Origin: an uncultured Actinomycetes bacterium
GTDB lineage: Bacteria; Actinomycetota; JAICYB01
Assembly (NCBI GenBank): GCA_964560135.1
Contig: CAZLKN010000001.1
Coordinates: 30,061-94,060 of the forward strand
Length of the DNA: 64,000 nt
Direction of reading: 5' to 3'
The position numbers and the translations under genes were made by a program. Positions 4,701 to 63,395 of this stretch are shown in pieces. Position 1 is the first letter of the stretch; each line of letters opens with the position of its first letter. The notes below the pieces were generated by a model, which had not been told where the DNA came from, searched no databases, and was given only the letters and a program-made list of their open reading frames with translations.

Positions 4701-5077
4701 GAACCCGCGGGGGCCCGCCTGGCCCGCTGGAACCAGGGGTGCTGATCGGAGGTGTGGTTCAGCACGAGCTCGGTGATCACCCGCAGGCCCTGCCGGCGGG
4801 CCTCGCGCATGAACAACCGGAAGTCGCGCAGTGTGCCGTAGTTGGCGTGGATGTTGGTGTAGTCGGCGGTGTCGTACCCGTCGTCACGCAACGGGGAGGG
4901 GTAGAAGGGGAGGATCCAGATGGCCGTGACGCCGAGATCCTGGAGGTAGTCGAGTTTCTGCGTCAGGCCGCGGAAGTCGCCGATGCCGTCGGAGTCGGAG
5001 TCGTGGAAGGCACGGATGTGCGTCTGGTAGATGACGGCATCCTTGTACCAGAGCGGATCCTCGTTTGATCCGGTCAC
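1730..5077 (-). CDS. treS: Fusion of trehalose synthase (TreS) and maltokinase (Pep2/Mak).
   Basis: The N-terminal roughly 600 aa is a GH13 trehalose synthase (EDPLWYKDAVIYQ, GIGDFRGL, GVDGMRLDAVPYL, NHDELTLEM). The C-terminal roughly 450 aa is maltokinase-like (DFEGEP...RSPLRDVAGMLRSFHYAAY). The start was chosen as GTG at 5077 because of the upstream GAGGGG RBS and because it lies 10 nt downstream of the glgE stop. Confidence 0.85.
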   Translation of the reverse strand: MTGSNEDPLWYKDAVIYQTHIRAFHDSDSDGIGDFRGLTQKLDYLQDLGVTAIWILPFYPSPLRDDGYDTADYTNIHANYGTLRDFRLFMREARRQGLRVITELVLNHTSDQHPWFQRARRAPAGSPERDFYVWSDTPERYQDARIIFQDFEVSNWTWDHEAQAYYWHRFYSHQPDLNFENPVVHRALLEVVDFWFAMGVDGMRLDAVPYLYEQEGTNCENLPQTHAFLKKLRAHVDERFGSRMLLAEANQWPEDAVTYFGDGDECNMAFHFPVMPRMFMAIRMEDRFPIIDILKQTPAIPPNAQWAMFLRNHDELTLEMVTDEERDYMYRAYAEDPQARVNLGIRRRLAPLLQGDRKKIELMNGLLFSLPGTPIVYYGDEIGMGDNIYLGDRNAVRTPMQWSSDRNAGFSRANPQRLFLPVIIDPEYHAEAVNVEAQQNNPHSLLWWTKRLIALRKRYQAFGRGSIEFLYPENRKVLVFLRSHEDEHILVVANLSRFVQYVELDLSAHRGAVPVEVFGHHEFPPVGELPYFLTLGPHAFYWFSLEAPRQEADVPTPRLRTIEVGAWTQLFSKRGRSELEEILPAWIRGRRWFGGKARKIKSVELEEAVPLPARVEGPKGGKPSRSSKPLAMLAFVSVEYTEGDAETYLLPLTVVSGDRAEELSEWYPGSGVAKLRTRDGEQLLVDATWEQPVAEMLFSLIGRRRSLSGEHGKLTTSTTGAFSKLRRRANEELQPSVMGAEQSNTSIAYGDRFILKLFRRPDPGVNPDLEIGRFLTERAAFPHVPKVAGAIEYRRGRSRPRTLAILQEYVPNQGDAWRYTLDELGRFYERALTVPAEERDEVVLPRETGVLRLAGQTPPAEAIEAIGPYLGSARLLGQRTAELHLALCSQAEDAAFAPEAFSTLYQRSLYQSMRALTERTFHLLRQRAKHLPEAAQVLDLEEEITQRFHQLTREKITTDRIRCHGDYHLGQVLYTGKDFVIIDFEGEPARPLSERRIKRSPLRDVAGMLRSFHYAAYTPLVSEDVEGGLLPDDPSVLDPWARLWYLWTSASFLGTYLETAAGSRFIPEDPRHIEVLLETFLIEKAVYEISYEANNRPDWLKIPIQGILQLLEDRS

Positions 5078-5087
5078 GCGCAGCCCC

Positions 5088-7064
5088 TCACATGAAGTAG
5101 TCGAAGTCGTGTTCGGTCCGGACCCGATGCCGGAGCCGGAAGATGTGGGCCGGCATCGAATGGGGATCGATCTCCACGTAGTTGTGCGGCCCATGCCAGA
5201 GGTACCTTGCGTCGGTGAGCAGGTCGTGGACCTGGTACGGGTGCTCCTCGGAGATGCCGAGTTCCGCCAGCGGCAGGCTGACCCAGCCCGACCGGGCATG
5301 GCTCGGATCGAGGTTCACGACCGTCAGGATCGCGTTCTCGCCGTCGTCGCTCACCTTCGAGTACGCGATCAGCTCCTCGTTGTCGATGGGGTGGAATTGC
5401 AGGGTGCGGTCGGTCTGCAGCGCCGGGTTCTCACGCCGGATCCGGTTGATCCGTCCGATCAGATCGGCGAGGCTGCCCGGATCGTCCAGGTTCCAGGACC
5501 GGATCTCGAATTTCTCGGAGTGCAGGTACTCCTCCCTCCCCGGGGCCACCGGCTCGCTCACGCAGAGCTCGAAGGCCGGTCCGTAGATGCCGTAGTTGGC
5601 GCTGAGCGTTGCCGCGAGGATGAGCCTGGACATGAAGGCCGGACGCCCGCCCCACTGGAGCAGCTCCGGCAGGATGTCCGGCGTGTTCGGCCAGAGGTTG
5701 GGACGGAAGAACTCTCCGACCACGGCCATATCGGCGAAGTACGATTCCAGCTCCCACTTGGCGTTCCGCCAGGTGAAGTAGGTGTACGACTGCGTGAACC
5801 CGAGCTTCGCCAGGGCGTACATCACCCGCGGACGCGTGAAGGCTTCGGACAGGAAGATCACCTCGGGATGCCGGGCTTTCACCTCGGCGATCATCCACTC
5901 CCAGAACGGGAAGGCCTTCGTGTGTGGGTTGTCCACGCGGAAGATCGTGATCCCACGGTCGATCCAGAACTCGACGACCCCACGCAAAGCCTCCCACAGC
6001 TCCTGCCACGCCTCGGTCTCGAAGTCGAGCGGATAGATGTCCTCGTAGCGTTTCGGCGGGTTCTCCGCATACCGGATCGTGCCGTCGGGCAGGCGCCGGA
6101 ACCACTCGGGATGCTCCTTCGTCCACGGATGATCGGGTGAGCACTGATAGGCGACGTCCATGGCGACCTCGAGGCCGTGCCGCCGCGCGGCGGCGACGAA
6201 CCGGTCGAAGTCCTCGAGCGTCCCGAGGTCGGGATGGACGGCAGTGTGGCCACCGTCCTCGGAGCCGATCGCCCACGGGCTTCCGACGTCCCCCGGCTCA
6301 CCTCGGGGTGCGTTGTTCTTTCCCTTGCGGTTGGTGGTGCCGATGGGATGGATCGGTGGCAGGTACACGATGTCGAAGCCCATGCGCGCGACGTAGGGGA
6401 GCACGCGCTCGGCGTCCTCGAGGATGCCGTGATTCTCGCCGGAGCCGAAGGACCGCGGGAAGAACTCGTACCACGAGGAGAAGCCCGCCCGCGGCGGGTC
6501 CACGACCACCTCGAGCTCCCGTGGATAGGTGGTGGCGAGGCTGCGATCGGGGTGGGCCTCCATGAGGGCGCGCAGCTCGGGGTCGAAGGCCATCTCCGGG
6601 CCCTCGGCCTCCTCGAGGCGCTTGGCCCAGCTCCGCAGTCGGGTTCGCTGGGGACCCTTGGCGCGCTTGGCGGCGGCGGCGGCGAGCTCGGCCCCCACGA
6701 GCAGGTCCACGGAGACGTCGACGCCGGCGTCCACCTTCTTGCGCAGGTCCCGGTACCAGGTGCGGAACCGGTCCACCCAGCCGACCACGGTGTAGCGGTA
6801 CCGTCCGAGCTCGCCGACACGGAACGAGCCGGACCAGCGGTCGTTCCAGCCGAGCTCCATGGGTGTCTCGTGCCAGTCGCCGGCCTCACCGTCGGCGCGC
6901 CAGCACAGAACGACGGACACGGCATCGTGGCCGTCGGCGAAGGCGTCCGCCTCGACGGCCACCTCCTCCCCGGGCACCCGCTTGATCGGGAACCGGCCGG
7001 CGTCGATCTCGGGGTACACCCCTTCGATCAACACCCGCCGGCGCTCGGCTCCCGCCGTGCTCAC
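5088..7064 (-). CDS. glgE: Alpha-1,4-glucan:maltose-1-phosphate maltosyltransferase (GlgE).
   Basis: The 658-aa protein has an N-terminus VLIEGVYPEIDAGRFPIKRVPGEEVAVEADAFADGHDAV that is typical of GlgE, and a GH13 core. Its GTG start overlaps the upstream mscS stop as GTGA. Confidence 0.85.
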   Translation of the reverse strand: MSTAGAERRRVLIEGVYPEIDAGRFPIKRVPGEEVAVEADAFADGHDAVSVVLCWRADGEAGDWHETPMELGWNDRWSGSFRVGELGRYRYTVVGWVDRFRTWYRDLRKKVDAGVDVSVDLLVGAELAAAAAKRAKGPQRTRLRSWAKRLEEAEGPEMAFDPELRALMEAHPDRSLATTYPRELEVVVDPPRAGFSSWYEFFPRSFGSGENHGILEDAERVLPYVARMGFDIVYLPPIHPIGTTNRKGKNNAPRGEPGDVGSPWAIGSEDGGHTAVHPDLGTLEDFDRFVAAARRHGLEVAMDVAYQCSPDHPWTKEHPEWFRRLPDGTIRYAENPPKRYEDIYPLDFETEAWQELWEALRGVVEFWIDRGITIFRVDNPHTKAFPFWEWMIAEVKARHPEVIFLSEAFTRPRVMYALAKLGFTQSYTYFTWRNAKWELESYFADMAVVGEFFRPNLWPNTPDILPELLQWGGRPAFMSRLILAATLSANYGIYGPAFELCVSEPVAPGREEYLHSEKFEIRSWNLDDPGSLADLIGRINRIRRENPALQTDRTLQFHPIDNEELIAYSKVSDDGENAILTVVNLDPSHARSGWVSLPLAELGISEEHPYQVHDLLTDARYLWHGPHNYVEIDPHSMPAHIFRLRHRVRTEHDFDYFM

Positions 7065-8002
7065 CGCTTCTGGTCCTTCCTCTCGGGGGGCTTCTCACCC
7101 ATGCCGGCCTGACGGATCGCGTCGTCCTCGTAGCGGACGATGATCTGCCGGTGGGGGTAGGGGATCGAGATCCCCGCGTCGTCGTACGCGAGCTTGATCC
7201 GCCGGCGGAACTCGCGACCCGTTTCCCACTGCTTACCCGGCATGGTCTCGATGTACATCTTCACGCTGACCTGGGAGTCGGCGTAGTCGTCGACGCCGAG
7301 TACCGTCAGCGGCCCCAACATCACCCCCGCGAAGTCCGGCTCCTTGCGCATGTCATCGGCCACCGCCCGGACGATCCCGATGGCGCGGTCGACGTCCTCC
7401 TCGTAGGGCACCGGGAGGTCGAACAGGTAGCGGGAGAAGCCGCTCGTGAAGTTCGAGCTGACCGTGACCTCCCCGTTCGGGATCACATGACGCTGCCCGT
7501 TGAGGTCTCGTACGACGGTCGTGCGCAGGGTGATCTTCTCCACGAGCCCCGAGACGCCGGCCAGCTCGACGATGTCGCCGACGTGGTACTGGTCCTCCAG
7601 CAGGATGAAGAACCCCGAGATCACGTCGCGGACGAGGGATTGGGCACCGAACCCGATCGCCACCCCGCCGATCCCGGCCGCGGCCAGCAGGGGGCCGAGG
7701 TCGATCCCGGGGATCTGCCCCAGGATGAGCAGCACGGCCAGGCCCCAGATCAGGGCCGTGGAGGCCGTGCGCAGCACGCCGGCGATGGTCTGGGTGCGCT
7801 TCTGCTCGATGGCGCGCGCGGCGTCCATCCCCTCGACACCGAGCTTCCGCACGAAGCGACGGATCGACAACCGGATGATCCACTGGAGCAGCAGCGCGAT
7901 CCCGATGACCGCGCCGATGCGGATCAGGATGAAGATGTACCCGGGGATGTCCTCGGCTCCGGGGAGGTCCGGGAGCTCCTGGAGGAGTTCAGCCGCGTTC
8001 AT
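7061..8002 (-). CDS. Mechanosensitive ion channel, MscS family.
   Basis: The protein has an N-terminal transmembrane region and a conserved MS_channel core (GIGGVAIGFGAQSLVRDVISGFFILLEDQYHVGDIVEL...RTTVVRDLNGQRHVIPNG). A strong RBS (AGGAGGGGAGG) precedes the ATG. The stop overlaps the glgE start. Confidence 0.85.
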   Translation of the reverse strand: MNAAELLQELPDLPGAEDIPGYIFILIRIGAVIGIALLLQWIIRLSIRRFVRKLGVEGMDAARAIEQKRTQTIAGVLRTASTALIWGLAVLLILGQIPGIDLGPLLAAAGIGGVAIGFGAQSLVRDVISGFFILLEDQYHVGDIVELAGVSGLVEKITLRTTVVRDLNGQRHVIPNGEVTVSSNFTSGFSRYLFDLPVPYEEDVDRAIGIVRAVADDMRKEPDFAGVMLGPLTVLGVDDYADSQVSVKMYIETMPGKQWETGREFRRRIKLAYDDAGISIPYPHRQIIVRYEDDAIRQAGMGEKPPERKDQKR

Positions 8003-8049
8003 CGCCTCCCCTCCTGTCCGCCTGTTCCGTGTTCGGCTACCCGACGAGA

Positions 8050-9027
8050 CTATCGTGCCGCGTCATCGGAAGGCCGTCCGGGGGCGCCTCCCTCGGGGGC
8101 GAGGGTCGCGTCGGGTGCAGGGGGAGCGGCGCGTGTGCCGGGGCGGCGCTCGTCCGGCCACAGCCGCTCGATCTCGGCGTTGAGCTCGGCCCCCACGAGG
8201 ATGGCCACGGCGGTCAGGAACAGCCACAGGAGGATCGCGATCGGGGTGGCCAGCGGGCCGTAGACGGTGTCGCCCTGGATGGTCCACGCCACGTAGAGAC
8301 GGAGCGCGCCGGCCCCCGCGAGCCAGATGGCCGCCGCGACCATCGCGCCGGGAAGGTCCCGGATCCAGCGGGTCCCCCGCGGAGGCGCCGCATGGTAGAA
8401 GGTCGCGAGCATCCCGATCCCGAGCATCCCGACCACGGGCCAGTACAGAACCCGCCACGCCGTGGCCATCGCGGCATCGAGCCCGAGCGGCCGCACGAGC
8501 GCCTCTCCCAACCGGGGTCCGGCGATGAGCACGGGCATCAGGACAGCGATGGCGAGCACCGCCCCGAAGGTCATCCCCAGGGCCACGATGCGTCGCCGGA
8601 CCGCCGAGCGGGTATCAGGTTCGTTGTAGGCCATGGCGACGGCGTCGTTCAGAACCCGGACGGCGCGGGAGGAGGACCACAACGCGATGACGGCACCGAT
8701 CGACACCACGTCGGCCCGGCCCTCGAACAGCAGCTCGTCGATGGTGGGCTCGAGCCACTGCTCACGTGTCTGGGGGGTGAGGAACGAGCCGGCCCCACCC
8801 AGGATCTGCTCGCGGAGCGCATCGAGCGTGTCGGGACCCAGCGCTTCTCCGACGAACCCGAGGGTGCCGAGGATCGCGAGCAGGAACGGCGGCAGTGACA
8901 GGAGGGTGAAGAACGCGACCTCCGCCCCGAGCCCGATCACCCGGTCGCCGTTCGCAGCCCCCACCGTACGGGTGACGAGCGTCAGGGCCGCTTGGGCGCC
9001 GCTCGGCCGATCAGGGTTCGTGCCCAC
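8050..9027 (-). CDS. YihY/BrkB (virulence factor BrkB / RNase BN-like) family membrane protein.
   Basis: The sequence shows the YihY signature (GAEVAFFTLLSLPPFLLAILG) and has multiple transmembrane segments. The start is GTG. Confidence 0.75.
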   Translation of the reverse strand: MGTNPDRPSGAQAALTLVTRTVGAANGDRVIGLGAEVAFFTLLSLPPFLLAILGTLGFVGEALGPDTLDALREQILGGAGSFLTPQTREQWLEPTIDELLFEGRADVVSIGAVIALWSSSRAVRVLNDAVAMAYNEPDTRSAVRRRIVALGMTFGAVLAIAVLMPVLIAGPRLGEALVRPLGLDAAMATAWRVLYWPVVGMLGIGMLATFYHAAPPRGTRWIRDLPGAMVAAAIWLAGAGALRLYVAWTIQGDTVYGPLATPIAILLWLFLTAVAILVGAELNAEIERLWPDERRPGTRAAPPAPDATLAPEGGAPGRPSDDAAR

Positions 9028-9095
9028 GGTCCGAGTCTACGCCGGGGCGTCGAGCGCCTTGCCCGCTTCTCGTGTGGGACGGTAGCGTCGTGGAC

Positions 9096-10271
9096 ATGCG
9101 GCTCGACAACGACACGATCCTCGAGCTGTGCCGGCTCCAGGATCCGGTCGGGGTCATCTCGATCTACGTCGGCACGACCCCGGAGCGACAGACCGGCTAT
9201 CAGCCCCAGTGGGTTCTGGCGATTCGCAACCAGATCCGCGAGCTCCGCGCCCGCGTCAAGGAAGAGGGCCCTCGGGAACGGTGGGTGGCGGTCCACGAGC
9301 GTCTCGACGGGTTGAACTCGGAGCTCGAAGGCCTCCTGGACCCCAAGCTGCGTGGTCGGGGACGCGCGCTGTTCATCCCCGTGTCCTCCGCGGACGTCTA
9401 CAGCATCGTCCTGCAGATGCCGCTGCCCGACACCGTCGTTCTGGAGAAGCGCGCGTTCGTCCGTCCGTTGGTGGTCGCGATGGACGAAGGGCGCGCGGCG
9501 GGCGTGGTCTTCGTGGACCGCTCCGGTCTGCGCCTGCTCGAATGGCGGTTCGGCGAGGTCGAGGAGATCTCGGAGCATCCCTTCGTGGACGAGTCCAGCG
9601 AGTGGCGCGAGATGAAGGGCCCGGCACAGACCAATCCCGCCCTGGACCAGCAGGCATCCGTGCAGCGGGACACCTTCGAGGACCGCCTCGACGAGCACCG
9701 GGCGAAGTTCGTCAAGCAGGTCGCGGTGGAGGTGCAGAAGGAGGTATCCGCGCGATCGTGGGACCGGCTGGTGGTCGCCGGTGAGGCACGCCTCGCGCAG
9801 CCGTTCGCGGACGTGGTCCGGGTCAACGGGTTGGAGATCCTGCGGACGGATCATGATCTGCGGCATGCCGGTTCCCACGAGGTGGACGAAGCCGTCGCGC
9901 CGTTGCTGACCGAGTCCCAGCGTCGCCTCGAGCTGTCCCTCGTGGAGCGGGCGAAGGAGCTGGGTCTGTCCGGACGGCAGGGCGCCCTCGGGCTGTCCGA
10001 CACGCTGGGGGCGCTCGGCGAGGGCCGCGTGCAGCACCTGCTCTACGACGACAGCCGGGATTTCACCGGGTTCCATACCTCCGACGGACGTCTGTTCCAC
10101 GACGCCGACGGGAACGCACCCTCGCGTGCGGAGCTGGAGCCCGAACCGCACCTGACCGAGCGGATGATCGAGCGCACGTTGGAAACGGGGGGGCGTGTGA
10201 CGCCCGTCGAGGGACCGGCGGCGGAGGCGCTGGAACCGCACGGCGGGGTCGCCGCGATCCTGCGGTGGTGA
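9096..10271 (+). CDS. Bacterial eRF1/Pelota/Vms1-like protein (putative Vms1/Ankzf1-family peptidyl-tRNA hydrolase or baeRF-type rescue factor).
   Basis: The N-terminus (LDNDTILELCRLQDPVGVISIYV) resembles that of Vms1-like bacterial proteins. There is a central RNaseH-like block (AAGVVFVDRSGLRLLEW) followed by a GxxQ-type loop (KGPAQTN, nt 9618-9629). The C-terminal GALGLSDTLGALGEGRVQHLLYD matches the eRF1/Pelota domain-3 pattern. Alternative in-frame starts are GTG at 9072 and 9090. Confidence 0.5.
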   Translation: MRLDNDTILELCRLQDPVGVISIYVGTTPERQTGYQPQWVLAIRNQIRELRARVKEEGPRERWVAVHERLDGLNSELEGLLDPKLRGRGRALFIPVSSADVYSIVLQMPLPDTVVLEKRAFVRPLVVAMDEGRAAGVVFVDRSGLRLLEWRFGEVEEISEHPFVDESSEWREMKGPAQTNPALDQQASVQRDTFEDRLDEHRAKFVKQVAVEVQKEVSARSWDRLVVAGEARLAQPFADVVRVNGLEILRTDHDLRHAGSHEVDEAVAPLLTESQRRLELSLVERAKELGLSGRQGALGLSDTLGALGEGRVQHLLYDDSRDFTGFHTSDGRLFHDADGNAPSRAELEPEPHLTERMIERTLETGGRVTPVEGPAAEALEPHGGVAAILRW

Positions 10272-10747
10272 CCAACGGTTCACCCGGGGCTCCACGTCGG
10301 CTGCTGCGGAGCCGTTCCGACCGGCTCATCGCGGGGGTCTGCGGGGGTCTCGGCCACTACCTCGGGATCGACCCGGTCTGGGTCCGCGTAGCCACGATCC
10401 TCATCATCCTCCTGCCCGGCATCGGCATCGTCGCCGTGGGCATCGCCTACCTCGTGGGGGTCGTGGTGGTTCCGGAGGAGCAGGCACCCGAACCACTCCC
10501 GCAGGGCGGGACGGCGTCCGCGGCGGCGGCACACCACACGCAGGCCCCTCCGCCACCGTCCCCGTCGCGGCCACCCGATGACGGACGCGACCAGGGCCGG
10601 CTCCTCGTCGGCGGGTTCCTGGTCGCCCTGGGAACGGTGTTGCTGGCCCGGATCTACCTGCCCGAGATCTTCACCGTCGCGGTGATCGGCCCCATCGTGT
10701 TGATCGCGCTGGGGGTGCTGGTCGTCGCGCAGGGGCTCCGGCGATGA
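10265..10747 (+). CDS. PspC-domain membrane protein (phage-shock / envelope-stress family).
   Basis: The PspC domain motif is RLLRSRSDRLIAGVCGGLGHYLGIDPVWVRV, followed by a transmembrane helix and a Pro-rich tail. The GTG start overlaps the stop of the upstream eRF1-like gene. Confidence 0.8.
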   Translation: MVTNGSPGAPRRLLRSRSDRLIAGVCGGLGHYLGIDPVWVRVATILIILLPGIGIVAVGIAYLVGVVVVPEEQAPEPLPQGGTASAAAAHHTQAPPPPSPSRPPDDGRDQGRLLVGGFLVALGTVLLARIYLPEIFTVAVIGPIVLIALGVLVVAQGLRR

Positions 10748-11436
10748 GATCGGGACGGCTGATCGTCGGATCGTTCCTCGTGGTCGCCGGCGTCGCCTGG
10801 CTCATGGATTCGCTGGGGCTCGTCGCACTCTCCGCCGGTATGGTGCTTTCGGTCGGGTTGATCCTCGTCGGGGTGGCGTTGCTCGTCACATCCGCCCGGC
10901 CCGGCGGCCACGGAGGGTTGATCATCCTCGGCGTGATCCTGACCCTGGTGCTCGGTCTGGGCACGACGGTGCGTGACCGGGCTGATGCCGCGCTGTTCCG
11001 CGGTGGGATCGGTGACCGGGTGGAGCGGCCCAGCACCCGCGCGGAGGCGCAACGCACCTTCGAGCTCGGCGCAGGCAACCTCAGACTCGACTTGACGGCT
11101 CTGGGCGCGACCCGCTCGCCGATCCGCGTCCGGGCCCGCGTGGGCACCGGCGAGCTGACGGTTGTCGTGCCCTCGCATGCGGCCGTCCGGATCACCTCGC
11201 ACGTGCAGGTGGGCCGCATCACGGTGTTCGGGCAGGAGCGTGGGTCGGGGCTCGACGTGACCGACACCTTCAGGGGAGGTGACGGCGGTCCCGTGCGGCT
11301 CAACCTCGACCTGCGCGCCGGCGCTGGTCGCATCGTGGTCGACGGCCGGCCGACACCGGACGCTCCGCCGGAGCCCTACAGGCGGGCACCGTCAGAACCC
11401 CGGGTCGGGCCGATCGAGGAGCCCTCCGATGCCTGA
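10744..11436 (+). CDS. LiaF-like / DUF2154-type 'toast-rack' membrane protein (cell-envelope stress module).
   Basis: The protein has two N-terminal transmembrane helices, then a beta-rich C-terminal domain (GAGNLRLDLTALG...VRARVGTGELTVVVPSHAAVRITSHVQVGRITVFG). It overlaps pspC as ATGA. Confidence 0.65.
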   Translation: MRSGRLIVGSFLVVAGVAWLMDSLGLVALSAGMVLSVGLILVGVALLVTSARPGGHGGLIILGVILTLVLGLGTTVRDRADAALFRGGIGDRVERPSTRAEAQRTFELGAGNLRLDLTALGATRSPIRVRARVGTGELTVVVPSHAAVRITSHVQVGRITVFGQERGSGLDVTDTFRGGDGGPVRLNLDLRAGAGRIVVDGRPTPDAPPEPYRRAPSEPRVGPIEEPSDA

Positions 11437-11671
11437 GCACGGCGTAGACGTGACCGCCGCGGTCTCCGGGGCGTTGTTCGTGGTCCTGGGCGGGCTGTTC
11501 CTCCTCGACCAGCTCGACGTGATCGTGGTGGCTCCGAGGCTCGTCTGGCCGCTGCTGCTGATCGGACTCGGAATCGCCGTCCTCGCCGGAAGCCGGCGCT
11601 CCCGCGGCGACGCCCCGGCGGAGGACGGCGACTCCCCAGCCGGGACCGACGACCCGCCGCTCGCCCCGTAG
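11429..11671 (+). CDS. Small two-TM membrane protein (80 aa), third gene of the PspC module.
   Basis: The sequence is MPEHGVDVTAAVSGALFVVLGGLFLLDQ...LLIGLGIAVLAG. It overlaps the upstream gene by 8 nt and is immediately followed by the next ATG. Confidence 0.5.
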   Translation: MPEHGVDVTAAVSGALFVVLGGLFLLDQLDVIVVAPRLVWPLLLIGLGIAVLAGSRRSRGDAPAEDGDSPAGTDDPPLAP

Positions 11672-12718
11672 ATGCTGCGCGTCGGGCTGGCGGGGTGCGG
11701 GTTCATCGGACGCGTGCACGCATGGGCGCTGTGGGCGCTGCGCCGGTCGAGCCTCGTGGACGCCGCCCTGGTGGCGGTGTTCGACCACGACCCCGAGCGC
11801 GCGGATCAGCTCGCGGCTCCACACGAGGCACGGACGGTCTCCAGCTCTGAGGCCCTGTGCGACGCGGTCGATGTCGTGTACGTGTGCACCCCCACGGCAG
11901 AGCACGCCGCGATCGTGGACGTTGCGGTCTCGCGGGGACTGGCGATCTTCTGCGAGAAGCCGTTGGCGACCGACCTCGCGGGGGCCGAACGGATCGCTAC
12001 GGCGCTCCGGCGGGTTCCGCACCAGGTCGGACTCGTGCTCAGGGCCGCTCCCGTCTTCCGGCGCCTGAACGAGGTGCTGGCCTCCGGTGTGTACGGCCGG
12101 GTGATGACGCTGCACCTGCGGGACGACCAGTTCTTCCCGACCCAGGGCCACTACGCCTCGTCGTGGCGGGCACAGGTGGACGTCGCCGGCGGCGGAACGC
12201 TGATCGAGCATTCGATCCACGACCTCGACCTGTTCCGCTGGCTGCTCGGCGATCCCGAGGAGATCTCTTGCCGTACGGCCTCCTTCTTCGGGCATCCGGG
12301 CATCGAGGATCTCGCTGTGGCCACGCTCACCTACCCTGGTGGCGTCATCGCCGGCCTCACCAGCGTCTGGCACCAGGTCCTCACGCGCCCGTCGACCCGG
12401 CGGCTCGAGGTGTTCTCCGAGCAGGCCCTGATCTGGACGGACGACGACTACACGGGACCGCTGCACATCGAAACCTCGGACGGGAGCGAGACGCTGGCGT
12501 GCCCGCCGGAGCCCTGGGTGGACCAGCTTCCCGTTCCCGAAGGTGTCCGCCGGCCACTCGGTCACTACGCGCAGGCCACCAAGGCCTTCCTGGAACGCAT
12601 CCACGGGACGGCGTCCTCGGCGTCGCTCGCGGGGGCCGAGGACGCCCTAGCCGCGCACCGGCTGGTGGCCGAGGCGTACCGGTCCGCGCTGGATGGTGGC
12701 CGGCCGCTGCGCCTGTAG
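11672..12718 (+). CDS. Gfo/Idh/MocA family NAD(P)-dependent oxidoreductase.
   Basis: The N-terminal Rossmann motif is MLRVGLAGCGFIGRVHA, and EKPLA is present. The protein is 348 aa. Confidence 0.8.
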   Translation: MLRVGLAGCGFIGRVHAWALWALRRSSLVDAALVAVFDHDPERADQLAAPHEARTVSSSEALCDAVDVVYVCTPTAEHAAIVDVAVSRGLAIFCEKPLATDLAGAERIATALRRVPHQVGLVLRAAPVFRRLNEVLASGVYGRVMTLHLRDDQFFPTQGHYASSWRAQVDVAGGGTLIEHSIHDLDLFRWLLGDPEEISCRTASFFGHPGIEDLAVATLTYPGGVIAGLTSVWHQVLTRPSTRRLEVFSEQALIWTDDDYTGPLHIETSDGSETLACPPEPWVDQLPVPEGVRRPLGHYAQATKAFLERIHGTASSASLAGAEDALAAHRLVAEAYRSALDGGRPLRL

Positions 12719-15250
12719 CTCCGCGTGTGGGCTGCGCTGCGATATGCCGATCCCCCAGGGGCAGCGGTCGAGCCACTCCATGAACTCTTCGGCGGGAAGC
12801 GGCCGGCAGATGTGGAATCCCTGGGCGAGATCGCAGCTCGTGAGCTCCATCAGACGGTCCAGCGTCTCTCGGGTCTCGACGCCTTCGACGACCGTCCGCA
12901 GCCCGAGGTTGTGACTGAGGTCCACGATCGATCGCACGATGGTGGCGTCGTTCTCGTCGTCGGCCATCCCGGCAACGAACGACCGGTCGATCTTGATCTC
13001 GTGGATGGGCATCCTCCGGAGGTGGGAGAGCGATGAGTATCCCGTACCGAAGTCGTCCACGCTCAGTCTGACGCCGGTCTCACCCAGCCGGTCCAGGAGC
13101 TCGACGGTCTCCCGGCGCCCGTCCATGAGCTCCGTCTCGGTGATCTCGAGTGTCAGGCGGTCGACGGGGAGGTTCGTCCCATCGAGTTGTTCCTGGACCC
13201 AGACGGGGAAGTTCGGATCGGAGAAGCTCGCTGCAGACACGTTCACGGCCATCGACAGATCCAGACCGCTTGCGCGCCAGGCTGCGCACTGCTCGAGCGC
13301 GCGACGGATCACCCATGTCGTCAGCGGATGGATCAGTCCCGATGTGACGGCGAGCGGAAGGAACTCGCCTGGCGCCAGCAGGCCGTGCTGGGGGTGGTTC
13401 CAGCGGACGAGCGCCTCGACCCCCACGACCTGGCCCGACCGGAAGTCGATCTTGGGCTGGTAGTGGAGCGTGAGCTCGTTGCCGTTGATCGCGCGCCTGA
13501 GCTCGGACACCTCGGCCAGGCGTCTCCTGCTGTTCGGATCATCGTCGGCCGACCAGAACGCCCACCGCGTCTGCATGCGCTTCGCTGCGTACATCGCGAC
13601 GTCCGCCCGGTGCACCAGGGTCTCCGGGTCCGCAGCGTGTTCGGGGTACAGCGCGATCCCCATGCTGATCGTGGCCTGTACCTTCCGTCCGTCGATGGAG
13701 AAGGGCTGCTCGAGAACCGCCCGGATCCGGCTTGCTACGCGGATCATCTCCCCGCGGTCACCGGCGCCCGGGAGCAGGATCGCGAACTCGTCGCCGCCCA
13801 GTCTGGCCACCGTGTCCGTCTCCCGCAGCAGCTTCACCAGCCGTGCCCCCAGGTCCCGCAGGAGCTGGTCACCACCGCTGTGGCCGAGGGTGTCGTTGAC
13901 GTCCTTGAACCGGTCGACGTCGAGGATGAAGATGGCTAGGCGGCTGCCGTCACGGCGTGCAAGCGCCAGACCGTGCTCCATGCGTTCGTAGAGCAGCGTC
14001 CGGTTGGCCAGACCGGTCAGCGGGTCGTGTAGCGCTTGGTGGCGGAGCGTCGCCTCGGCCTGCTTGCGGTCGGTCACGTCGTCGAAGGCGAGGCCGACGC
14101 ACCGGTCGGGCAGGGGAAACAGCTTCACGGAGAACCGACGCGCGTTGCCCGCGGCATCGTCGAGCCGGACATCGTCCACGTGGATGCAGCTGTTCGACCT
14201 CACGACACGGGACCCGATGGACGGCAACCCGCGACGGCAGAGGTCCTCGAAGATCTCGTGGACACGGCGCCCGACGACGTCGGCCGGGGCCCTTCCGCTC
14301 AACTCCGACGCCGCCGGGTTGAGTGCGACGAGCCGGAAGCTCTCCTGATCGTCGGGATCGTCCAACTGCCAGACGTGCAGGCCCACCTGCATGTTCTCGA
14401 AGATGTCGGCGTACTGACGGATCCTCTCCTGCGCCTGCTTGCGGGCCGTGACATCGACCATCTCGCCGCGCAGCCAGATCACGGAGCCGTCGGGTGCGAG
14501 ATCCACCTTCATGCTGTCCTCGAGCCACAGAACGGACCCGTCGGCGGCGATCATCCGGTACTCCACGGTCTGGTCGTACCCCTGCTCCATGGCGTCGAGG
14601 AACGCCTGGGCGGTGGGGACCAGGTCGCTGGGATGGATCTGGTCGAGCCAGAACCGGGGGTCTCCGAGCCAGGCCTCGGGAGGATGCCCGAGCAGCGACT
14701 CGATCTGCCGGCTCACGAAGGTGATGTGACGGGTCGCGGGATCAGCTTCCCAGACCACGGCGTCAAGGCCGTCGACGAGGTTTGCGTAGCGCCGCCGGAC
14801 GGAACGCTCGCGTTCGGCGATGGCGCCGATCGTGACGATGACCGTCGGAGCGCAGATCAGATACGCCACGATGCCCGGCAGGGCGCTGTCCTGTCCCTGG
14901 ATGACGGCGGCGAGAGCGAACCCCTGCACGGCAGCGACGGCGGTGGCGGCGACGGTCCGCCGGTCGATCAGGACGGTCATCAGCGCGAGATCGGCGAGGG
15001 ACGCGAGGAGGACCGGCGTCCAGACGGCAGGGAAGAGCACGACCACGCCGATCGCCATCGCTTGGTCGATGAAGGCTGTGACCGCCGGGAGCCGTCCGAG
15101 GCGCCTGGCCCACAGGTGCATCAGGAGGTCGACGGGAAGGATGACGAAGAGGCACACGGCCGCGAGCCAGCCCCGGTTCGGTCCGACCTGCGGGATCAGC
15201 CCCGCCGCCGCTCCGAGCGCGACGATCGAGATGTGGCGGCATCCGAACAC
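12647..15250 (-). CDS. Membrane-anchored PAS-PAS-GGDEF-EAL protein (diguanylate cyclase/phosphodiesterase).
   Basis: The sequence contains GGDEF (ARLGGDEF with an RETD I-site) and an EAL domain (GVEALVRW, DDFGTGYSSLSHL), preceded by PAS repeats and an N-terminal multi-TM region. The 5' end is uncertain. GTG at 15250 was chosen as the first start downstream of the neighbouring gene's stop. The longest ORF extends to 15526. Confidence 0.75.
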   Translation of the reverse strand: MFGCRHISIVALGAAAGLIPQVGPNRGWLAAVCLFVILPVDLLMHLWARRLGRLPAVTAFIDQAMAIGVVVLFPAVWTPVLLASLADLALMTVLIDRRTVAATAVAAVQGFALAAVIQGQDSALPGIVAYLICAPTVIVTIGAIAERERSVRRRYANLVDGLDAVVWEADPATRHITFVSRQIESLLGHPPEAWLGDPRFWLDQIHPSDLVPTAQAFLDAMEQGYDQTVEYRMIAADGSVLWLEDSMKVDLAPDGSVIWLRGEMVDVTARKQAQERIRQYADIFENMQVGLHVWQLDDPDDQESFRLVALNPAASELSGRAPADVVGRRVHEIFEDLCRRGLPSIGSRVVRSNSCIHVDDVRLDDAAGNARRFSVKLFPLPDRCVGLAFDDVTDRKQAEATLRHQALHDPLTGLANRTLLYERMEHGLALARRDGSRLAIFILDVDRFKDVNDTLGHSGGDQLLRDLGARLVKLLRETDTVARLGGDEFAILLPGAGDRGEMIRVASRIRAVLEQPFSIDGRKVQATISMGIALYPEHAADPETLVHRADVAMYAAKRMQTRWAFWSADDDPNSRRRLAEVSELRRAINGNELTLHYQPKIDFRSGQVVGVEALVRWNHPQHGLLAPGEFLPLAVTSGLIHPLTTWVIRRALEQCAAWRASGLDLSMAVNVSAASFSDPNFPVWVQEQLDGTNLPVDRLTLEITETELMDGRRETVELLDRLGETGVRLSVDDFGTGYSSLSHLRRMPIHEIKIDRSFVAGMADDENDATIVRSIVDLSHNLGLRTVVEGVETRETLDRLMELTSCDLAQGFHICRPLPAEEFMEWLDRCPWGIGISQRSPHAELQAQRPATIQRGPVRLGHQPVRG

Positions 15251-15435
15251 GCGTGCCCACAGATGATCGGATCCCGCTTCCCGCGGCGAACCGTTGGCGT
15301 GCAGCGGCGAACGCAGACCCACCCTGACTGTTCTCCTTCCTGCCCCCACCAGGCCGTTCGTCGGTGCACCACGGGTATCGGCACGGGCAGGCCGGACCTT
15401 TAGGGCATCGAGGACATGGCGCTCCGAAGAAGGGT

Positions 15436-17829
15436 TCAGGCCACGGTGTCGCTGTGCGTCAGCAGGCTGTCGACCTCGCTGGCCGGCAGCGGTCGGAACA
15501 GGTGGAAGCCCTGGACCACGTCGCACCCGATGCGGCGCAGGTACTGGAGCTGATCCATGGTCTCGACACCCTCGGCCACCACCTCGATACCGAGGTCCTG
15601 GGAGAGGTTGATGACGGAGCGGACGATCGCCATGTCCTCGGCGCTGTGCGTGAGGCCGGACACGAACGAGCGGTCGATCTTCAGGATGGAGAAGGGGAAG
15701 CGCTTCAGGTAGCTGAGGGACGAGTATCCGAGGCCGAAATCATCGATCGCCAGGCGCACCCCCAGCGCGTGGATCTGCTCCGTCAGCTCGAGCATCGCCA
15801 GGTCGTCCCGCATCACCACGCTCTCCGTGACCTCCAGCACCAGCGGCTGGCGCGGGCCCCCGTCGTTGAGGACGGCGGTCAGGTGGGCCATGAAGTCGTG
15901 TTGGCGCAGTTCCTTGGCCGACAGGTTCACGCAGATCGCCAGCGGCTCGTCGCCTTGTCCGTTCCAGATCTGGACCTGCCGGTAAGCCTGCTCCAGGACC
16001 CATCGACCCAGCGGGACGATCAGGCCTGTCTCCTCGGCCAGCGGGATGAACTCCGCGGGGAGCAGCCGCCCGCGTGCCGGATGTTCCCAGCGAACCAGCG
16101 CCTCGAGCCCTGCCATCCGCCCGGTCCGCAACGAGACCAGGGGCTGATACAGGAGCTCGAGTTCCCCGCCCCGGATGGCGCGTCGTAGTTCGGTCTCCAT
16201 CTCCAGACGCCGCCGGGCTCGCGCGGTCATCTCCGAGCGGTACAGCTCCACCCGGCTCCCACCGAGCTCCTTGGCCCGGTACATGGCCAGATCGGCGTCC
16301 TGGATGAAGTCCCGGTCGCGATCCGAGGCGGGACCGTAGGCGATGCCGATCGACGCCGAGACGAACACGTCCCGGCCGTCGATCGAGAAGCGGTCCTGGA
16401 GCTCCTCGCACAGCCGCATGGCTGCCAGCACCGCGCCCTGTTCGCCGTCGACGCCCTCGACGAGCACGGTGAACTCGTCGCCGCCGAAGCGGGCGATCGT
16501 GTCCGCCGGGCGCAGGCACGCGGTGAGCCGGTCCGCCACCGCTCGCAGGAGCTCGTCCCCGACGTCGTGCCCGAGGCTGTCGTTGACCTTCTTGAAGTGG
16601 TCGAGGTCGAGGAAGAGCACGGCGATAGCGCCCGGGCTCCGGGCTTTGCGCTCCAGGCAGTGGTTGAGGCGGTCGAGGAAAAGGGCGCGGTTCGGAAGCC
16701 CGGTCAGCGCGTCGTGGAAGGCCTGGTGGGTGAGCGTCTCCTCGAAGGCCCGGCGCTCGGTGAACCTGCGGGCCACGGTGAGCGCCGCGCCCGCCTGGAG
16801 GGCGAGCAGCTCGAGACACTCCACCTCGTCGGCCGAGACGATCCGGTCGTTCCGGGTCCCTGCGACCAGAACCGCCACCAGCTCACCCGCGGACCAGATC
16901 GGGGTCGCGATGACCGTCCGGTAGCCGAGCTCGCGGATCGCCGGGATGCCCTTGTGCCATGCCGCATAGTCACCGACCACCACCGTCATCTGCCGTCGGT
17001 AGGCGAGGCCCGCGATCCCCGTGTCGAACGGATGATCGGCGGCATAGCCTTCAGGGAGGCCGCGGGGATGCATCACGCGATACCTGGCGCTGCGCTCGTC
17101 GAACAGACAGATCTCGGTGCCGTCGAAGCCGATCGCCACCGTCGCCTCGGCCACCGAGTCGAGGACCTTGCCCACCTCCGGACTGGTCATGCTGCGGCTC
17201 GCCGCGGCGACGATGCCGAGGAGTTCGGCCCGGCGCTCTGAACCTTCGACGACGACGCCGTAGGCGTCCACCTGCTTGCGGAGGTTACGGGCCAGATAGC
17301 CGCTCGCGAGGGCGACGATCAGGATGATCCCGAGGCGGTAGGACACTGATTCGGGACGGAGGGTGACCGCGTCGTGGACCTGTGAGGCGGCGAACTCACG
17401 GACCGGATACAGGAACGCGATCGCGCCCCAGGTGAGCATCGCTCCGCGCAGGCCACCGCGTAGCGCGCCCTCGAGTGGCGGTATCACCAGAAGCGCCCAG
17501 AGTGCGCCGGTCGGGTCGAAGGCGAAGATCCAGGTGATCGCGAAGATGATGAGGACGTCGGCCACGAGTTCGAGGCTGCCGATCCGCTGGAGGGTCTTCG
17601 GGTCGCGGAACCGCCGCCCGTACAACGAGAGGACGTTGACGGCCGTCAGGGCGGCGGCGACGCCCAGCGCGGTCGCGAGCTTCGGGAAGGGCACCGAGAT
17701 CCCGGCGGGAGGACGGTAGAAGGTGAACTGGACGATGGCGAAGGGAACCGCCAGCCAGCGGACGCGGCGCATCGCGGCATCCGTCGACAGGAGCTCGTCT
17801 CTCAGACGGGTTCCATGTGGCGACCTCAC
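15436..17829 (-). CDS. Membrane-anchored GAF-GGDEF-EAL protein (diguanylate cyclase/phosphodiesterase).
   Basis: The protein has an N-terminal transmembrane region, a GAF-like region, GGDEF (ARFGGDEF with an RPAD I-site) and EAL ([21 protein letters not shown]). An alternative start is the Met at 17772. Confidence 0.8.
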
Positions 17830-25235: not shown

Positions 25236-25303
25236 GCCTCCATGGTGCACCGTCGGGCACCGGTTAGGCTCGGGGGAGGGCAACGGATGAGGGAGGGCTG
25301 CTC

Positions 25304-62474: not shown

Positions 62475-62546
62475 CCCGGCCTCCCTTCGACGCGTCCCAC
62501 CGGCGGCCCATGATAGGAGACCGGGGACCGACACAGAGGAGTCGAC

Positions 62547-63374: not shown

Positions 63375-63395
63375 GTCACGGAGGAGGCAGGGATA

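What the first reader, a model, noticed from the sequence alone, without database searches (positions are those of the whole stretch)
9072..12718. eRF1/Vms1-like putative peptidyl-tRNA hydrolase translationally coupled to a PspC / LiaF-like envelope-stress module
A 392-399-aa protein reads as eRF1/Pelota/Vms1-like. Its N-terminal block (PVGVISIYV) resembles the start of Vms1-family bacterial proteins. A central AAGVVFVDRSGLRLLEW block is followed by a GxxQ-type loop (KGPAQ at 9618-9629), which could correspond to the catalytic GGQ of eRF1 or the GSQ of Vms1. The C-terminal GALGLSDTLGALGEGRVQHLLYD is a domain-3-like motif. The stop of this gene overlaps the GTG start of a PspC-domain gene. That gene overlaps a LiaF-like toast-rack gene as ATGA, which in turn overlaps an 80-aa two-TM protein, and a Gfo/Idh/MocA oxidoreductase follows with no gap. 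A ribosome-rescue-type factor co-transcribed with membrane-stress sensors is not a described arrangement. It may link release of stalled secretory or membrane nascent chains to envelope stress, or the protein may be a non-translational eRF1-fold protein.
Basis: partly seen in the sequence, partly recalled or inferred. Interest (0 to 1): 0.8.

Follow-up and report, generated by a model that had tools for sequence, protein, structure and literature searches.

The report
Balon-type hibernation factor beside Psp-like cassette
The "eRF1/Vms1-like hydrolase" is a member of the known Balon family of ribosome hibernation factors, which park on idle ribosomes rather than release peptides, and its link to a PspC/LiaF-like membrane-stress cassette is real but optional and confined to a narrow actinobacterial clade.

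Summary
The 391-aa product (ATG 9096) does have an aeRF1 fold. More specifically, it is a full-length homologue of Msmeg1130, the Balon ribosome hibernation factor of Mycobacterium smegmatis (PDB 8v9j: sequence E 9e-46; AF2 model TM 0.81/0.87). It belongs to Pfam baeRF_family10, as Msmeg1130 does.

The proposed catalytic "KGPAQ" is not conserved: Gln is present in 2 of 38 homologues. It lies in a 16-residue insertion that Msmeg1130 lacks. No GGQ or NIKS motif is present, and no Vms1/VLRF1 model matched.

The PspC, Toastrack (LiaF-like) and LiaI-type TM genes form a known PspA-free Psp/Lia cassette that also occurs elsewhere without Balon. The order Balon→PspC→LiaF-like recurs in at least two other lineages (L047, L048; Balon 56–57% identical to the window's). 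It is missing in near relatives: P0009 Balon is 88% identical to the cassette-bearing P0005. One relative keeps a probable deletion scar. About 28 more distant Balon loci lack the cassette.

Best reading: this is a stress or dormancy operon in which a hibernation factor is co-expressed with a membrane-stress module. That is one more example of the published rule that Balon genes sit in stress operons. Interest is modest.

The parts
9083..9088 (+). -10-like hexamer TAGCGT, 7 nt upstream of ATG 9096; inferred promoter of a leaderless or near-leaderless operon mRNA
   Evidence: GGTAG(C/G)GTC is the only conserved block in the alignment of upstream regions from the window, L047, L048, L009 and L046. 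It always lies 6-7 nt before the start codon. The consensus sigma-70 scan found nothing. The promoter role is an inference from the actinobacterial TANNNT -10 rule.
9096..10271 (+). Balon-family (Msmeg1130-like, baeRF family 10) ribosome hibernation factor, 391 aa. The alternative GTG start at 9072 is unlikely.
   Evidence: Pfam baeRF_family10 2e-18. NCBIfam MSMEG_1130 family ribosome hibernation factor 1.9e-93, full length, 313.5 bits against a cut-off of 480. PDB 8v9j_z E 9.4e-46. AF2 pLDDT 90.7, Foldseek top hit 8v9j_z with TM 0.81/0.87.
9600..9665 (+). Middle-domain loop (residues 169-190, EWREMKGPAQTNPALDQQASVQ) at the position of the eRF1 GGQ loop; probable equivalent of the Balon 'lasso' loop.
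   Evidence: Low pLDDT, 51-58. Q178 is Gln in 2/38, Q185 in 25/38, Q190 in 14/38; the following helix Arg197 is invariant, 38/38. 16 residues of this loop are absent from Msmeg1130.
10265..10747 (+). PspC-domain membrane protein (159-160 aa); its start overlaps the Balon stop
   Evidence: Pfam PspC 1.1e-20, 73.6 bits, above cut-off. Junction read.
10744..11436 (+). LiaF-like protein: N-terminal TM helices plus a C-terminal Toastrack beta-helix domain (230 aa)
   Evidence: Pfam LiaF-like_C 3.7e-5, below cut-off. Homologues carry PF09922, and some are PspC+LiaF_C fusions. AF2 model is best matched by 4QRK, E 3.6e-5. 4QRK is named as a Toastrack exemplar in PMC11237479.
11429..11671 (+). 80-aa two-TM protein of the LiaI-LiaF-like TM family
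   Evidence: Pfam LiaI-LiaF-like_TM1 4.3e-8, 33.6 bits, above cut-off. The same small gene follows the LiaF-like gene in L043/L044, L045, L047 and the P0102 contig.
11672..12718 (+). Gfo/Idh/MocA oxidoreductase, last gene of the operon. It is the conserved direct neighbour of Balon in relatives that lack the cassette.
   Evidence: Pfam GFO_IDH_MocA plus C-terminal domains. L009/L010 and L046 have Balon followed directly by Gfo.
7061..9027 (-). Divergently transcribed MscS-type channel (7061-8002) and BrkB/YihY-family membrane protein (8050-9027); conserved synteny anchors upstream
   Evidence: Pfam hits. The same genes lie upstream of Balon in L009/L010 and L047.
12647..15526 (-). Convergent PAS-GGDEF-EAL gene; conserved synteny anchor downstream. 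Its 3' end overlaps the Gfo 3' end by 72 bp.
   Evidence: Pfam hits. Homologous EAL genes flank the locus in L009 and L043/L044.

Best explanation
The gene at 9096-10271 encodes a Balon-type ribosome hibernation factor of the Msmeg1130 / baeRF family 10 lineage.

By homology to the solved Msmeg1130-ribosome complexes, the protein should occupy the A site of idle or stalled 70S ribosomes. Its N domain should contact the decoding centre. [quoted passage not shown] Its C domain should contact EF-Tu. The expected result is that translation is blocked and ribosomes are protected during stress, without hydrolysis of peptidyl-tRNA.

In this genome the gene is the first cistron of a compact five-gene operon, probably transcribed as a leaderless mRNA. 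The four downstream genes are joined by overlapping or abutting stop and start codons. They are a PspA-free Psp/Lia-type membrane-stress cassette (PspC, a Toastrack/LiaF-like protein and a LiaI-type 2-TM protein) followed by a Gfo/Idh/MocA oxidoreductase.

The linkage most likely reflects co-expression under a common envelope, osmotic or dormancy stress, not a shared biochemical mechanism. The cassette is a portable unit that is ancestral at this locus in a narrow clade. It has been deleted repeatedly without replacement of Balon.

Shown here: family membership, fold, non-conservation of the Gln, operon anatomy, and the distribution of the adjacency.
Inferred: ribosome binding by this particular protein, leaderless transcription, and co-regulation.
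For: Identity of the protein:
- PDB 8v9j_z (Msmeg1130 Balon) E 9.4e-46, aligned over residues 9-399.
- NCBIfam MSMEG_1130-family ribosome hibernation factor, 1.9e-93, end to end.
- Pfam baeRF_family10 for both this protein and Msmeg1130.
- AF2 model pLDDT 90.7. Its best Foldseek matches are Msmeg1130 (TM 0.81/0.87, rmsd 3.3), then P. urativorans Balon (TM 0.67/0.71-0.72). aRF1/eRF1 reach TM about 0.45-0.5 and Pelota is lower.
- PMC10901736 reports that Msmeg1130 and Rv2629 bind the A site, lack NIKS/GGQ, inhibit translation 15-fold in vitro, and that Balon genes typically sit in stress-response operons.

Loop:
- Q178 is Gln in 2/38 homologues, no loop Gln is invariant, and Arg197 is invariant.
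- KGPAQ lies in an insertion absent from Msmeg1130.

Cassette:
- The same three-gene cassette occurs without Balon in the P0102 contig, and its last two genes with a cut upstream ORF in L045. PspC-Toastrack fusions exist.

Distribution:
- L047 and L048 carry the order Balon, PspC, LiaF-like.
- L009/L010 and L046 have Balon followed directly by Gfo at the same syntenic locus.
- P0005 (with cassette) and P0009 (without) are 88% identical.
- The L046 spacer retains about 38 nt homologous to the Balon-PspC spacer plus the first five PspC codons, with ATG changed to ACG.
- Profile-HMM screens found no PspC or Toastrack gene in about 28 distinct more distant Balon loci with at least 800 nt of downstream sequence.

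Other neighbours of this Balon clade are ion or osmotic-stress genes: MscS, TrkA, a Na/H exchanger, trehalase and Usp.
Against: - The NCBIfam score (313.5 bits) is below the curated equivalog cut-off (480), so this is a divergent subfamily and not a certified equivalog.
- No ribosome-binding data exist for this protein.
- Burroughs & Aravind 2019 (PMC6514570) singled out baeRF family 10 as possibly catalytic because of a conserved Gln. A semi-conserved Gln (Q185, 25/38) does exist in the loop.
- The cassette has persisted next to Balon across about 45% Balon sequence divergence. In the window it is fused to it by overlapping codons. Both facts could indicate more than co-regulation.
- Transcription and leaderless initiation are inferred from sequence only.
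Confidence: 0.72

Rival explanations
1. Membrane-stress-gated hibernation. The PspC/Toastrack/LiaI-TM complex physically sequesters or activates the Balon protein at the membrane, as PspBC does for PspA or LiaF for LiaS. Envelope damage would then directly switch ribosome hibernation on or off.
For: The order Balon, PspC, LiaF-like is kept in at least three lineages whose Balons are only 56-57% identical to the window's. Stop and start codons overlap in the window. Toastrack is predicted to be cytoplasmic and to act as a signalling partner domain (PMC11237479).
Against: The cassette is lost in relatives whose Balon is 83-88% identical to a cassette-linked Balon, with no visible compensating change in length or termini. 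It is absent from about 28 more distant Balon loci. The cassette occurs on its own in other contexts. None of the 98 Balon homologues carries a PspC Pfam domain, so no fusion is seen. In L047 and L048 the cassette is separated from Balon by a 26-31 nt spacer that has its own -10-like hexamer.
Confidence: 0.1
2. One reading: a catalytically active eRF1/Vms1-like peptidyl-tRNA hydrolase that releases stalled secretory or membrane nascent chains, coupled to envelope-stress sensing.
For: The protein has an aeRF1 superfamily fold. baeRF family 10 was once proposed as potentially catalytic (PMC6514570). A Gln at position 185 is present in 25/38 homologues. NCBI still names some homologues 'VLRF1 family aeRF1-type release factor'.
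Against: There is no GGQ or GSQ. The proposed GPAQ Gln is conserved in 2/38, and no loop Gln is invariant. The loop length varies, and 16 residues including GPAQ are missing from Msmeg1130. Msmeg1130, itself family 10, is experimentally a hibernation factor that inhibits translation and leaves the PTC inert (PMC10901736). No VLRF1 Pfam or NCBIfam model hits at E<=1. No Vms1 structure appears in the listed Foldseek matches.
Confidence: 0.04
3. Fortuitous juxtaposition. The three-gene Psp-like cassette simply landed in, or was left in, a permissive intergenic site between Balon and Gfo. The compact overlaps reflect genome streamlining and have no regulatory or functional meaning.
For: Both the cassette and Gfo are present or absent in different relatives at one conserved locus: window Balon-cassette-Gfo, L043/44 cassette-EAL without Gfo, L009/L046 Balon-Gfo. 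-10-like hexamers lie in front of PspC and Gfo in relatives, which suggests originally independent transcription units. The cassette is found in unrelated contexts.
Against: The same order and strand persist across deep divergence. In the window the spacers have been eliminated, so co-transcription and coupled translation are hard to avoid. The neighbours of this Balon clade are consistently membrane, ion or osmotic-stress genes. This fits the published pattern of stress operons.
Confidence: 0.14

Closest known systems
Msmeg1130 (Balon homologue of Mycobacterium smegmatis; PDB 8v9j/8v9l; NCBIfam NF052288; Pfam baeRF_family10)
   Same: Full-length collinear alignment at 33% identity. Same Pfam family. 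Predicted structure superposes with TM 0.81/0.87. Same C-terminal ...GVAAxLRW end, the same beta-hairpin insert in the C domain, the invariant Arg after the loop, and no GGQ/NIKS.
   Different: Scores below the NCBIfam equivalog cut-off, 313.5 vs 480 bits. The middle-domain loop is 16 residues longer, and this extra stretch contains GPAQ. The genomic context differs: here a PspC/Toastrack cassette and Gfo. The published mycobacterial copies are described next to hypoxia-response or EmrB genes.
Balon of Psychrobacter urativorans (PDB 8rd8/8rdv/8rdw)
   Same: Same three-domain architecture and overall shape, TM 0.67/0.71-0.72. Same proposed role, and it likewise resides in stress-response operons.
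   Different: Only 17-19% identity. The sequence-only match is marginal, E 0.68. The His-Pro 'HP motif' is not obviously present at the aligned N-domain loop, where the window has TTPERQTG.
aeRF1/eRF1, Pelota/Dom34 and Vms1/VLRF1
   Same: Common aeRF1-superfamily fold and domain order.
   Different: No NIKS, no GGQ or GSQ, and no conserved catalytic Gln. Structural similarity is much lower, TM <=0.5. No VLRF1 model hit.
PspA-free PspC / Toastrack / LiaI-LiaF-TM systems (Ravi et al. 2024, PMC11237479); LiaF/LiaI of Bacillus, VraT of Staphylococcus
   Same: The same three domain types are encoded by adjacent, overlapping genes. PspC-Toastrack fusions exist among the homologues.
   Different: No adjacent two-component system, PadR/HAAS regulator or PspA. 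Here the cassette is embedded downstream of a ribosome hibernation factor, a context not mentioned in that survey (0 occurrences of 'ribosom').

Membership tests
Balon family of ribosome hibernation factors (Msmeg1130 subgroup / baeRF family 10) | Three-domain aeRF1-like fold closest to solved Balon structures | tested here: met
   AF2 pLDDT 90.7. Foldseek top hits are 8v9j_z/8v9l_z (TM 0.81-0.87), then 8rdw/8rdv/8rd8, ahead of aRF1/eRF1.
Balon family of ribosome hibernation factors (Msmeg1130 subgroup / baeRF family 10) | Significant full-length sequence homology to an experimentally characterised member | tested here: met
   phmmer against PDB 8v9j_z gives E 9.4e-46 over residues 9-399. BLASTP gives 33% identity, E 2e-54. 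Both proteins are Pfam baeRF_family10.
Balon family of ribosome hibernation factors (Msmeg1130 subgroup / baeRF family 10) | Score above the curated NCBIfam equivalog cut-off (NF052288, 480 bits) | tested here: not met
   313.5 bits, E 1.9e-93, aligned 2-387 of 387. This indicates a divergent sister subfamily, not a certified equivalog.
Balon family of ribosome hibernation factors (Msmeg1130 subgroup / baeRF family 10) | Absence of the aeRF1 NIKS and GGQ motifs; variable 'lasso' loop in place of GGQ | tested here: met
   No GGQ or NIKS in the sequence. The loop at residues 169-190 has low confidence and variable sequence and length. Q178 is Gln in 2/38.
Balon family of ribosome hibernation factors (Msmeg1130 subgroup / baeRF family 10) | Beta-hairpin insertion in the C-terminal (EF-Tu-binding) domain | tested here: met
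   Residues about 319-350 form short strands in the model. They align with the corresponding Msmeg1130 segment. The more distant homologues P0084-P0097 lack this segment.
Balon family of ribosome hibernation factors (Msmeg1130 subgroup / baeRF family 10) | HP motif contacting the decoding centre; bL27 trap | tested here: inconclusive
   The weak alignment to P. urativorans Balon places its ...REHPAN... opposite the window's ...PERQTG.... Only a Pro (P29) is conserved in this clade. Residue-level mapping of the bL27 trap was not possible with these tools.
Balon family of ribosome hibernation factors (Msmeg1130 subgroup / baeRF family 10) | Binds the ribosomal A site with EF-Tu and inhibits translation | not testable with these tools
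   Requires biochemistry or cryo-EM. It has been shown for Msmeg1130 and Rv2629 only (PMC10901736).
Catalytic aeRF1 / Vms1 (VLRF1) peptidyl-tRNA hydrolases | Invariant catalytic Gln in a GGQ/GSQ-type loop of constrained length | tested here: not met
   No loop Gln is invariant: Q178 2/38, Q185 25/38, Q190 14/38. The loop differs by 16 residues from Msmeg1130.
Catalytic aeRF1 / Vms1 (VLRF1) peptidyl-tRNA hydrolases | Match to VLRF1/Vms1 profile or structure | tested here: not met
   Only baeRF families hit in Pfam, and only ribosome-hibernation-factor families in NCBIfam, at E<=1. No Vms1 chain appears in the listed Foldseek PDB matches.
PspA-free Psp/Lia-like cassette (PspC + Toastrack + LiaI-LiaF-TM) | PspC domain protein | tested here: met
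   PF04024, 73.6 bits against a cut-off of 25.
PspA-free Psp/Lia-like cassette (PspC + Toastrack + LiaI-LiaF-TM) | Toastrack (LiaF_C/DUF2154/DUF4097) beta-helix domain behind TM helices | tested here: met
   The Pfam sequence score is below cut-off, 24 vs 29 bits. However, the AF2 model shows three N-terminal helices followed by a beta-rich domain whose only significant PDB match is 4QRK, E 3.6e-5. 4QRK is the Toastrack exemplar in PMC11237479. The homologues carry PF09922.
PspA-free Psp/Lia-like cassette (PspC + Toastrack + LiaI-LiaF-TM) | LiaI-LiaF-type TM protein | tested here: met
   PF18917, 33.6 bits against a cut-off of 27.
PspA-free Psp/Lia-like cassette (PspC + Toastrack + LiaI-LiaF-TM) | Associated output (two-component system, PadR/HAAS regulator or PspA) nearby | tested here: not met
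   None lies in the operon or among the flanking genes. Forty of about 46 candidate genes in the window were scanned against Pfam and none is a PspA, LiaRS-type or PadR gene. The rest of the genome was not available.

The most novel reading that the evidence does not exclude
In this actinobacterial clade the PspC/Toastrack/LiaI-TM membrane complex is a dedicated sensor that controls the Balon protein post-translationally, by sequestration at or release from the membrane. Membrane damage would then be wired directly to ribosome hibernation. That would be the first known upstream signal input for a Balon-type factor.
Probability: 0.1. Interest if true: 0.7.

Novelty: new member of a known kind. 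Interest (0 to 1): 0.3.

Why it matters
The result corrects a tempting mis-annotation. NCBI still names close homologues "VLRF1 family aeRF1-type release factor", and a 2019 survey flagged baeRF family 10 as possibly catalytic. The evidence here places the protein with the Balon hibernation factors.

It also adds an envelope-stress (Psp/Lia-type) cassette to the published list of stress modules found beside Balon genes. The locus offers natural near-isogenic contrasts: relatives with and without the cassette, one of them with a probable deletion scar. These could be used to test whether membrane stress and ribosome hibernation are co-regulated.

By itself this does not reveal a new mechanism.

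Tried and rejected
- The search for related loci with the broad alignments A1 and A2 failed because no sufficiently conserved stretch existed. The narrower A3 worked, but the single genome-contig scan returned only 7 loci, all Gaiellales or Thermoleophilia and none with the cassette. The source genome itself is not in that collection.
- After I first concluded that the adjacency was unique to this genome and that the cassette was an insertion. Look-ups of closer homologues overturned this: L047 and L048 carry it, and the L046 spacer scar points to loss, not gain.
- An apparent "Gfo C-terminal remnant" after the cassette in L043/L044 was rejected as evidence of a Gfo deletion. Those 24 codons are the antisense of the conserved 3' end of the convergent EAL gene, which overlaps Gfo by 72 bp in the window.
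- The consensus sigma-70 promoter and intrinsic terminator scan found nothing in 8900-13000.
- No DosR-box-like motif was evident upstream by eye.
- Cluster look-up gave no taxon names.
- Pfam was run on 40 of about 46 candidate genes in the window. It found no HPF/RaiA, PspA, two-component system or second Balon copy.
- Literature searches for Balon together with PspC or phage shock found nothing relevant.

Full report

Yes, as far as the anatomy goes. The + strand between 9072 and 12718 carries five consecutive ORFs with high third-position GC. The junctions were read directly:
- The first gene ends ...CTG CGG TGG TGA at 10260-10271. A GTG at 10265 or 10268 starts the next gene.
- ATGA at 10744-10747 joins genes 2 and 3.
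- ATG 11429 lies 8 bp before the end of gene 3 (TGA 11434-11436). TAG|ATG at 11669-11674 joins genes 4 and 5.

The real start of gene 1 is most likely ATG 9096 (391 aa). All homologues begin there, and the identical database protein P0001 is 391 aa.

**2. What is gene 1?**

- Pfam places it in the bacterial aeRF1 clade: baeRF_family10 2e-18 and family5 4.6e-17.
- NCBIfam's best model is "MSMEG_1130 family ribosome hibernation factor". The match is E 1.9e-93 and runs end to end (2-387 of 387). At 313.5 bits it is below the equivalog cut-off of 480.
- Against PDB sequences the only significant hit is 8v9j chain z, "Ribosome hibernation factor Balon (MSMEG_1130)", at E 9.4e-46 over residues 9-399.
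- An AlphaFold2 model built on 38 homologues is confident (pLDDT 90.7, pTM 0.86).
- Foldseek ranks ribosome-bound Msmeg1130 first (TM 0.81/0.87, rmsd 3.3 Å). Psychrobacter Balon follows (TM 0.67/0.71-0.72), then aRF1/eRF1 (TM about 0.45-0.5), with Pelota/Dom34 lower. No Vms1 chain appears in the listed matches.
- Msmeg1130 is itself Pfam baeRF_family10, 5e-36.

The paper that defined the family (Helena-Bueno et al., Nature 2024, PMC10901736) reports several relevant points:
- Msmeg1130 and Rv2629 bind the ribosomal A site.
- They lack the NIKS and GGQ motifs and inhibit translation about 15-fold in vitro.
- Balon carries a "lasso" loop in place of GGQ and leaves the peptidyl-transferase centre inert.

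The functional label, a peptidyl-tRNA hydrolase or rescue factor, is not the best-supported one.

**3. The GxxQ test**

In the 38-sequence alignment A1, the Gln of KGPAQ (residue 178 of the 391-aa protein) is Gln in only 2 sequences. Most have Pro, Ala or Gly. Other loop glutamines are also not invariant: Q185 in 25/38 and Q190 in 14/38. The Arg that opens the following helix (R197) is invariant.

The loop (residues 169-190) is the only low-confidence stretch of the model. A pairwise alignment shows that 16 loop residues, including KGPAQ, are simply absent from Msmeg1130.

Burroughs & Aravind (2019, PMC6514570) did single out family 10 as possibly catalytic because of a conserved Gln. That prediction predates the Msmeg1130 structures and translation assays. 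I keep a small residual probability for catalysis.

**4. The downstream genes**

- Gene 2 is a PspC-domain membrane protein (73.6 bits).
- Gene 3 has N-terminal TM helices and a C-terminal domain that scores below the Pfam LiaF-like_C threshold (24 vs 29 bits). Its homologues carry PF09922, and several are PspC+LiaF_C fusions. The only significant PDB match of its AF2 model is 4QRK (E 3.6e-5). Ravi et al. (2024, PMC11237479) name 4QRK as an exemplar of the Toastrack domain.
- Gene 4 is a LiaI-LiaF-type 2-TM protein (33.6 bits).
- Gene 5 is a Gfo/Idh/MocA oxidoreductase.

[quoted passage not shown] The trio is therefore a known kind of membrane-stress cassette. The complete cassette occurs with overlapping genes in an unrelated context: after ClpB and before LemA in the P0102 contig. 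In L045 the LiaF-like and LiaI-type genes, preceded by a cut ORF, lie before a Na/Ca exchanger.

**5. Is the Balon-cassette adjacency conserved?**

This was the key test, and the answer is "in a narrow clade, and facultatively".

The flanks form a conserved locus: TreS-Pep2 (-), GlgE (-), MscS (-), BrkB (-) | Balon ... | PAS-GGDEF-EAL (-). Within that frame the arrangements are:
- Window: Balon, PspC, LiaF-like, TM, Gfo.
- L047 (Balon P0005, 56% identical to the window's): BrkB | Balon, PspC, LiaF-like, TM.
- L048 (P0004, 57%): Balon, PspC, LiaF-like.
- L043/L044 (LiaF-like 68% identical; the C-terminal stretch of the EAL protein 84% identical): PspC, LiaF-like, TM | EAL with no Gfo. The upstream part is not on the contig.
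- L009/L010 (P0009) and L046 (P0003): Balon directly followed by Gfo, in the same synteny.

P0003, P0004, P0005, P0007 and P0009 form a tight group (75-88% identity). P0005, with the cassette, and P0009, without it, are 88% identical.

The 70-nt Balon-Gfo spacer of L046 retains about 38 nt that align with the Balon-PspC spacer and the first five PspC codons of L047/L048. The ATG is mutated to ACG. I read this as a deletion scar. On that reading the cassette was ancestral and has been lost at least twice.

Outside this clade, phmmer and purpose-built profile HMMs for the PspC domain and the LiaF-like protein found no such gene. The screen covered about 28 distinct Balon loci with at least 800 nt of downstream sequence, from Gaiellales, Thermoleophilia, Nitriliruptorales and metagenomes. 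The PspC HMM did detect a second, diverged PspC gene in the window (25304-25525), which serves as a positive control. The precomputed Pfam annotation for L011-L014 agrees with this result.

**6. Regulation (inferred)**

The only conserved block upstream of Balon in five loci is GGTAG(C/G)GTC, placed 6-7 nt before the start codon (window TAGCGT at 9083-9088). This fits the actinobacterial TANNNT -10 element of leaderless transcripts.

In L047 and L048 a TACGCT or TAGGCT lies 6 nt before the PspC ATG. In L009 and L046 a TACGAT lies 5 nt before the Gfo ATG. In relatives the three units may therefore each have their own promoter.

In the window these spacers are gone and the genes overlap. The five genes are probably one translationally coupled operon. 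No terminator-like site lies inside it.

**7. How it most likely works**

The protein parks in the A site of idle or paused ribosomes and preserves them. This is inferred by homology to Msmeg1130. The operon co-expresses it with a membrane-stress cassette and an oxidoreductase.

Neighbours of this Balon clade elsewhere are MscS, BrkB, TrkA-type K+ proteins, a Na+/H+ exchanger, trehalase and Usp. This suggests an osmotic, ionic or envelope-stress theme. It matches the published generalisation that Balon genes sit in stress-response operons for heat, osmotic, acid and antibiotic stress.

A direct physical coupling between the cassette and Balon is not excluded. The rapid loss of the cassette from near-identical Balons, the stand-alone occurrence of the cassette and the absence of fusions all argue against it.

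**8. Novelty and score**

The protein is a new, somewhat divergent member of a family described in 2024. The cassette is a known module. Their juxtaposition is not mentioned in the Balon paper (0 occurrences of 'PspC'). It is not mentioned in the PSP survey (0 occurrences of 'ribosom'). No searchable paper mentions it. It is nevertheless clade-restricted, optional, and consistent with an already stated rule.

Interest is 0.3. The most novel reading still open is membrane-stress gating of hibernation through the cassette. I give it a probability of about 0.1, with an interest of about 0.7 if true.

Noticed in passing
L046:2265-2340 compared with L047:1752-1800 and L048:1817-1860: The Balon-Gfo spacer of L046 keeps about 38 nt homologous to the Balon-PspC spacer plus the first five PspC codons, with ATG changed to ACG. 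This is a probable scar of a precise deletion of the three-gene cassette. L009 lacks even this remnant.
   Followed up: partly
window 9083-9088; L047:1775-1780; L048:1833-1838; L009:2224-2229; L046:2327-2332: TANNNT -10-like hexamers sit 5-7 nt upstream of the start codons of Balon (all five loci), of PspC (L047, L048) and of Gfo (L009, L046). This suggests leaderless transcripts and separate promoters in relatives. The window has lost the internal spacers.
   Followed up: partly
window 25304-25525 (+): A second, stand-alone 73-aa PspC-domain gene (Pfam 1.1e-21). It lies between an ATP-dependent DNA ligase (24207-25283, -) and a PNPOx-family gene (25522-25914, -). A LigD primase-polymerase gene sits at 23215-24222 (+). 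No Toastrack partner is nearby.
   Followed up: partly
window 1730-7064 (-): A TreS-maltokinase (Pep2) fusion (1189 aa) and GlgE, which are enzymes of the trehalose-to-alpha-glucan pathway, lie immediately upstream of the MscS and BrkB genes. GlgE, MscS and BrkB keep the same order in L010.
   Followed up: partly
window 12647-12718: The convergent Gfo/Idh/MocA and PAS-GGDEF-EAL ORFs overlap by 72 bp at their 3' ends. This overlap produced a spurious 'Gfo remnant' hit in L043/L044, where Gfo is absent.
   Followed up: yes
homologues P0022, P0030, P0052: NCBI records name these Balon-family proteins 'VLRF1 family aeRF1-type release factor'. The current NCBIfam library gives ribosome-hibernation-factor models as the only hits.
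   Followed up: partly
L014:9197-10512; P0010 contig; L012:9289-10476: More distant members of this Balon clade sit next to TrkA_N/TrkA_C K+-transport regulators, a TrkA-type K+ channel, or a Na+/H+ exchanger together with trehalase, G6PD and Usp. This is a recurring ion or osmotic-stress theme.
   Followed up: no
window 38374-39651 (+): A DUF222 + HNH endonuclease gene, a type I recall as often repeated or mobile in Actinobacteria, lies in otherwise ordinary chromosomal context. The 1535-aa ORF at 59247-63854 (-) and the uncalled stretch at about 15.6-18.0 kb were not examined.
   Followed up: no
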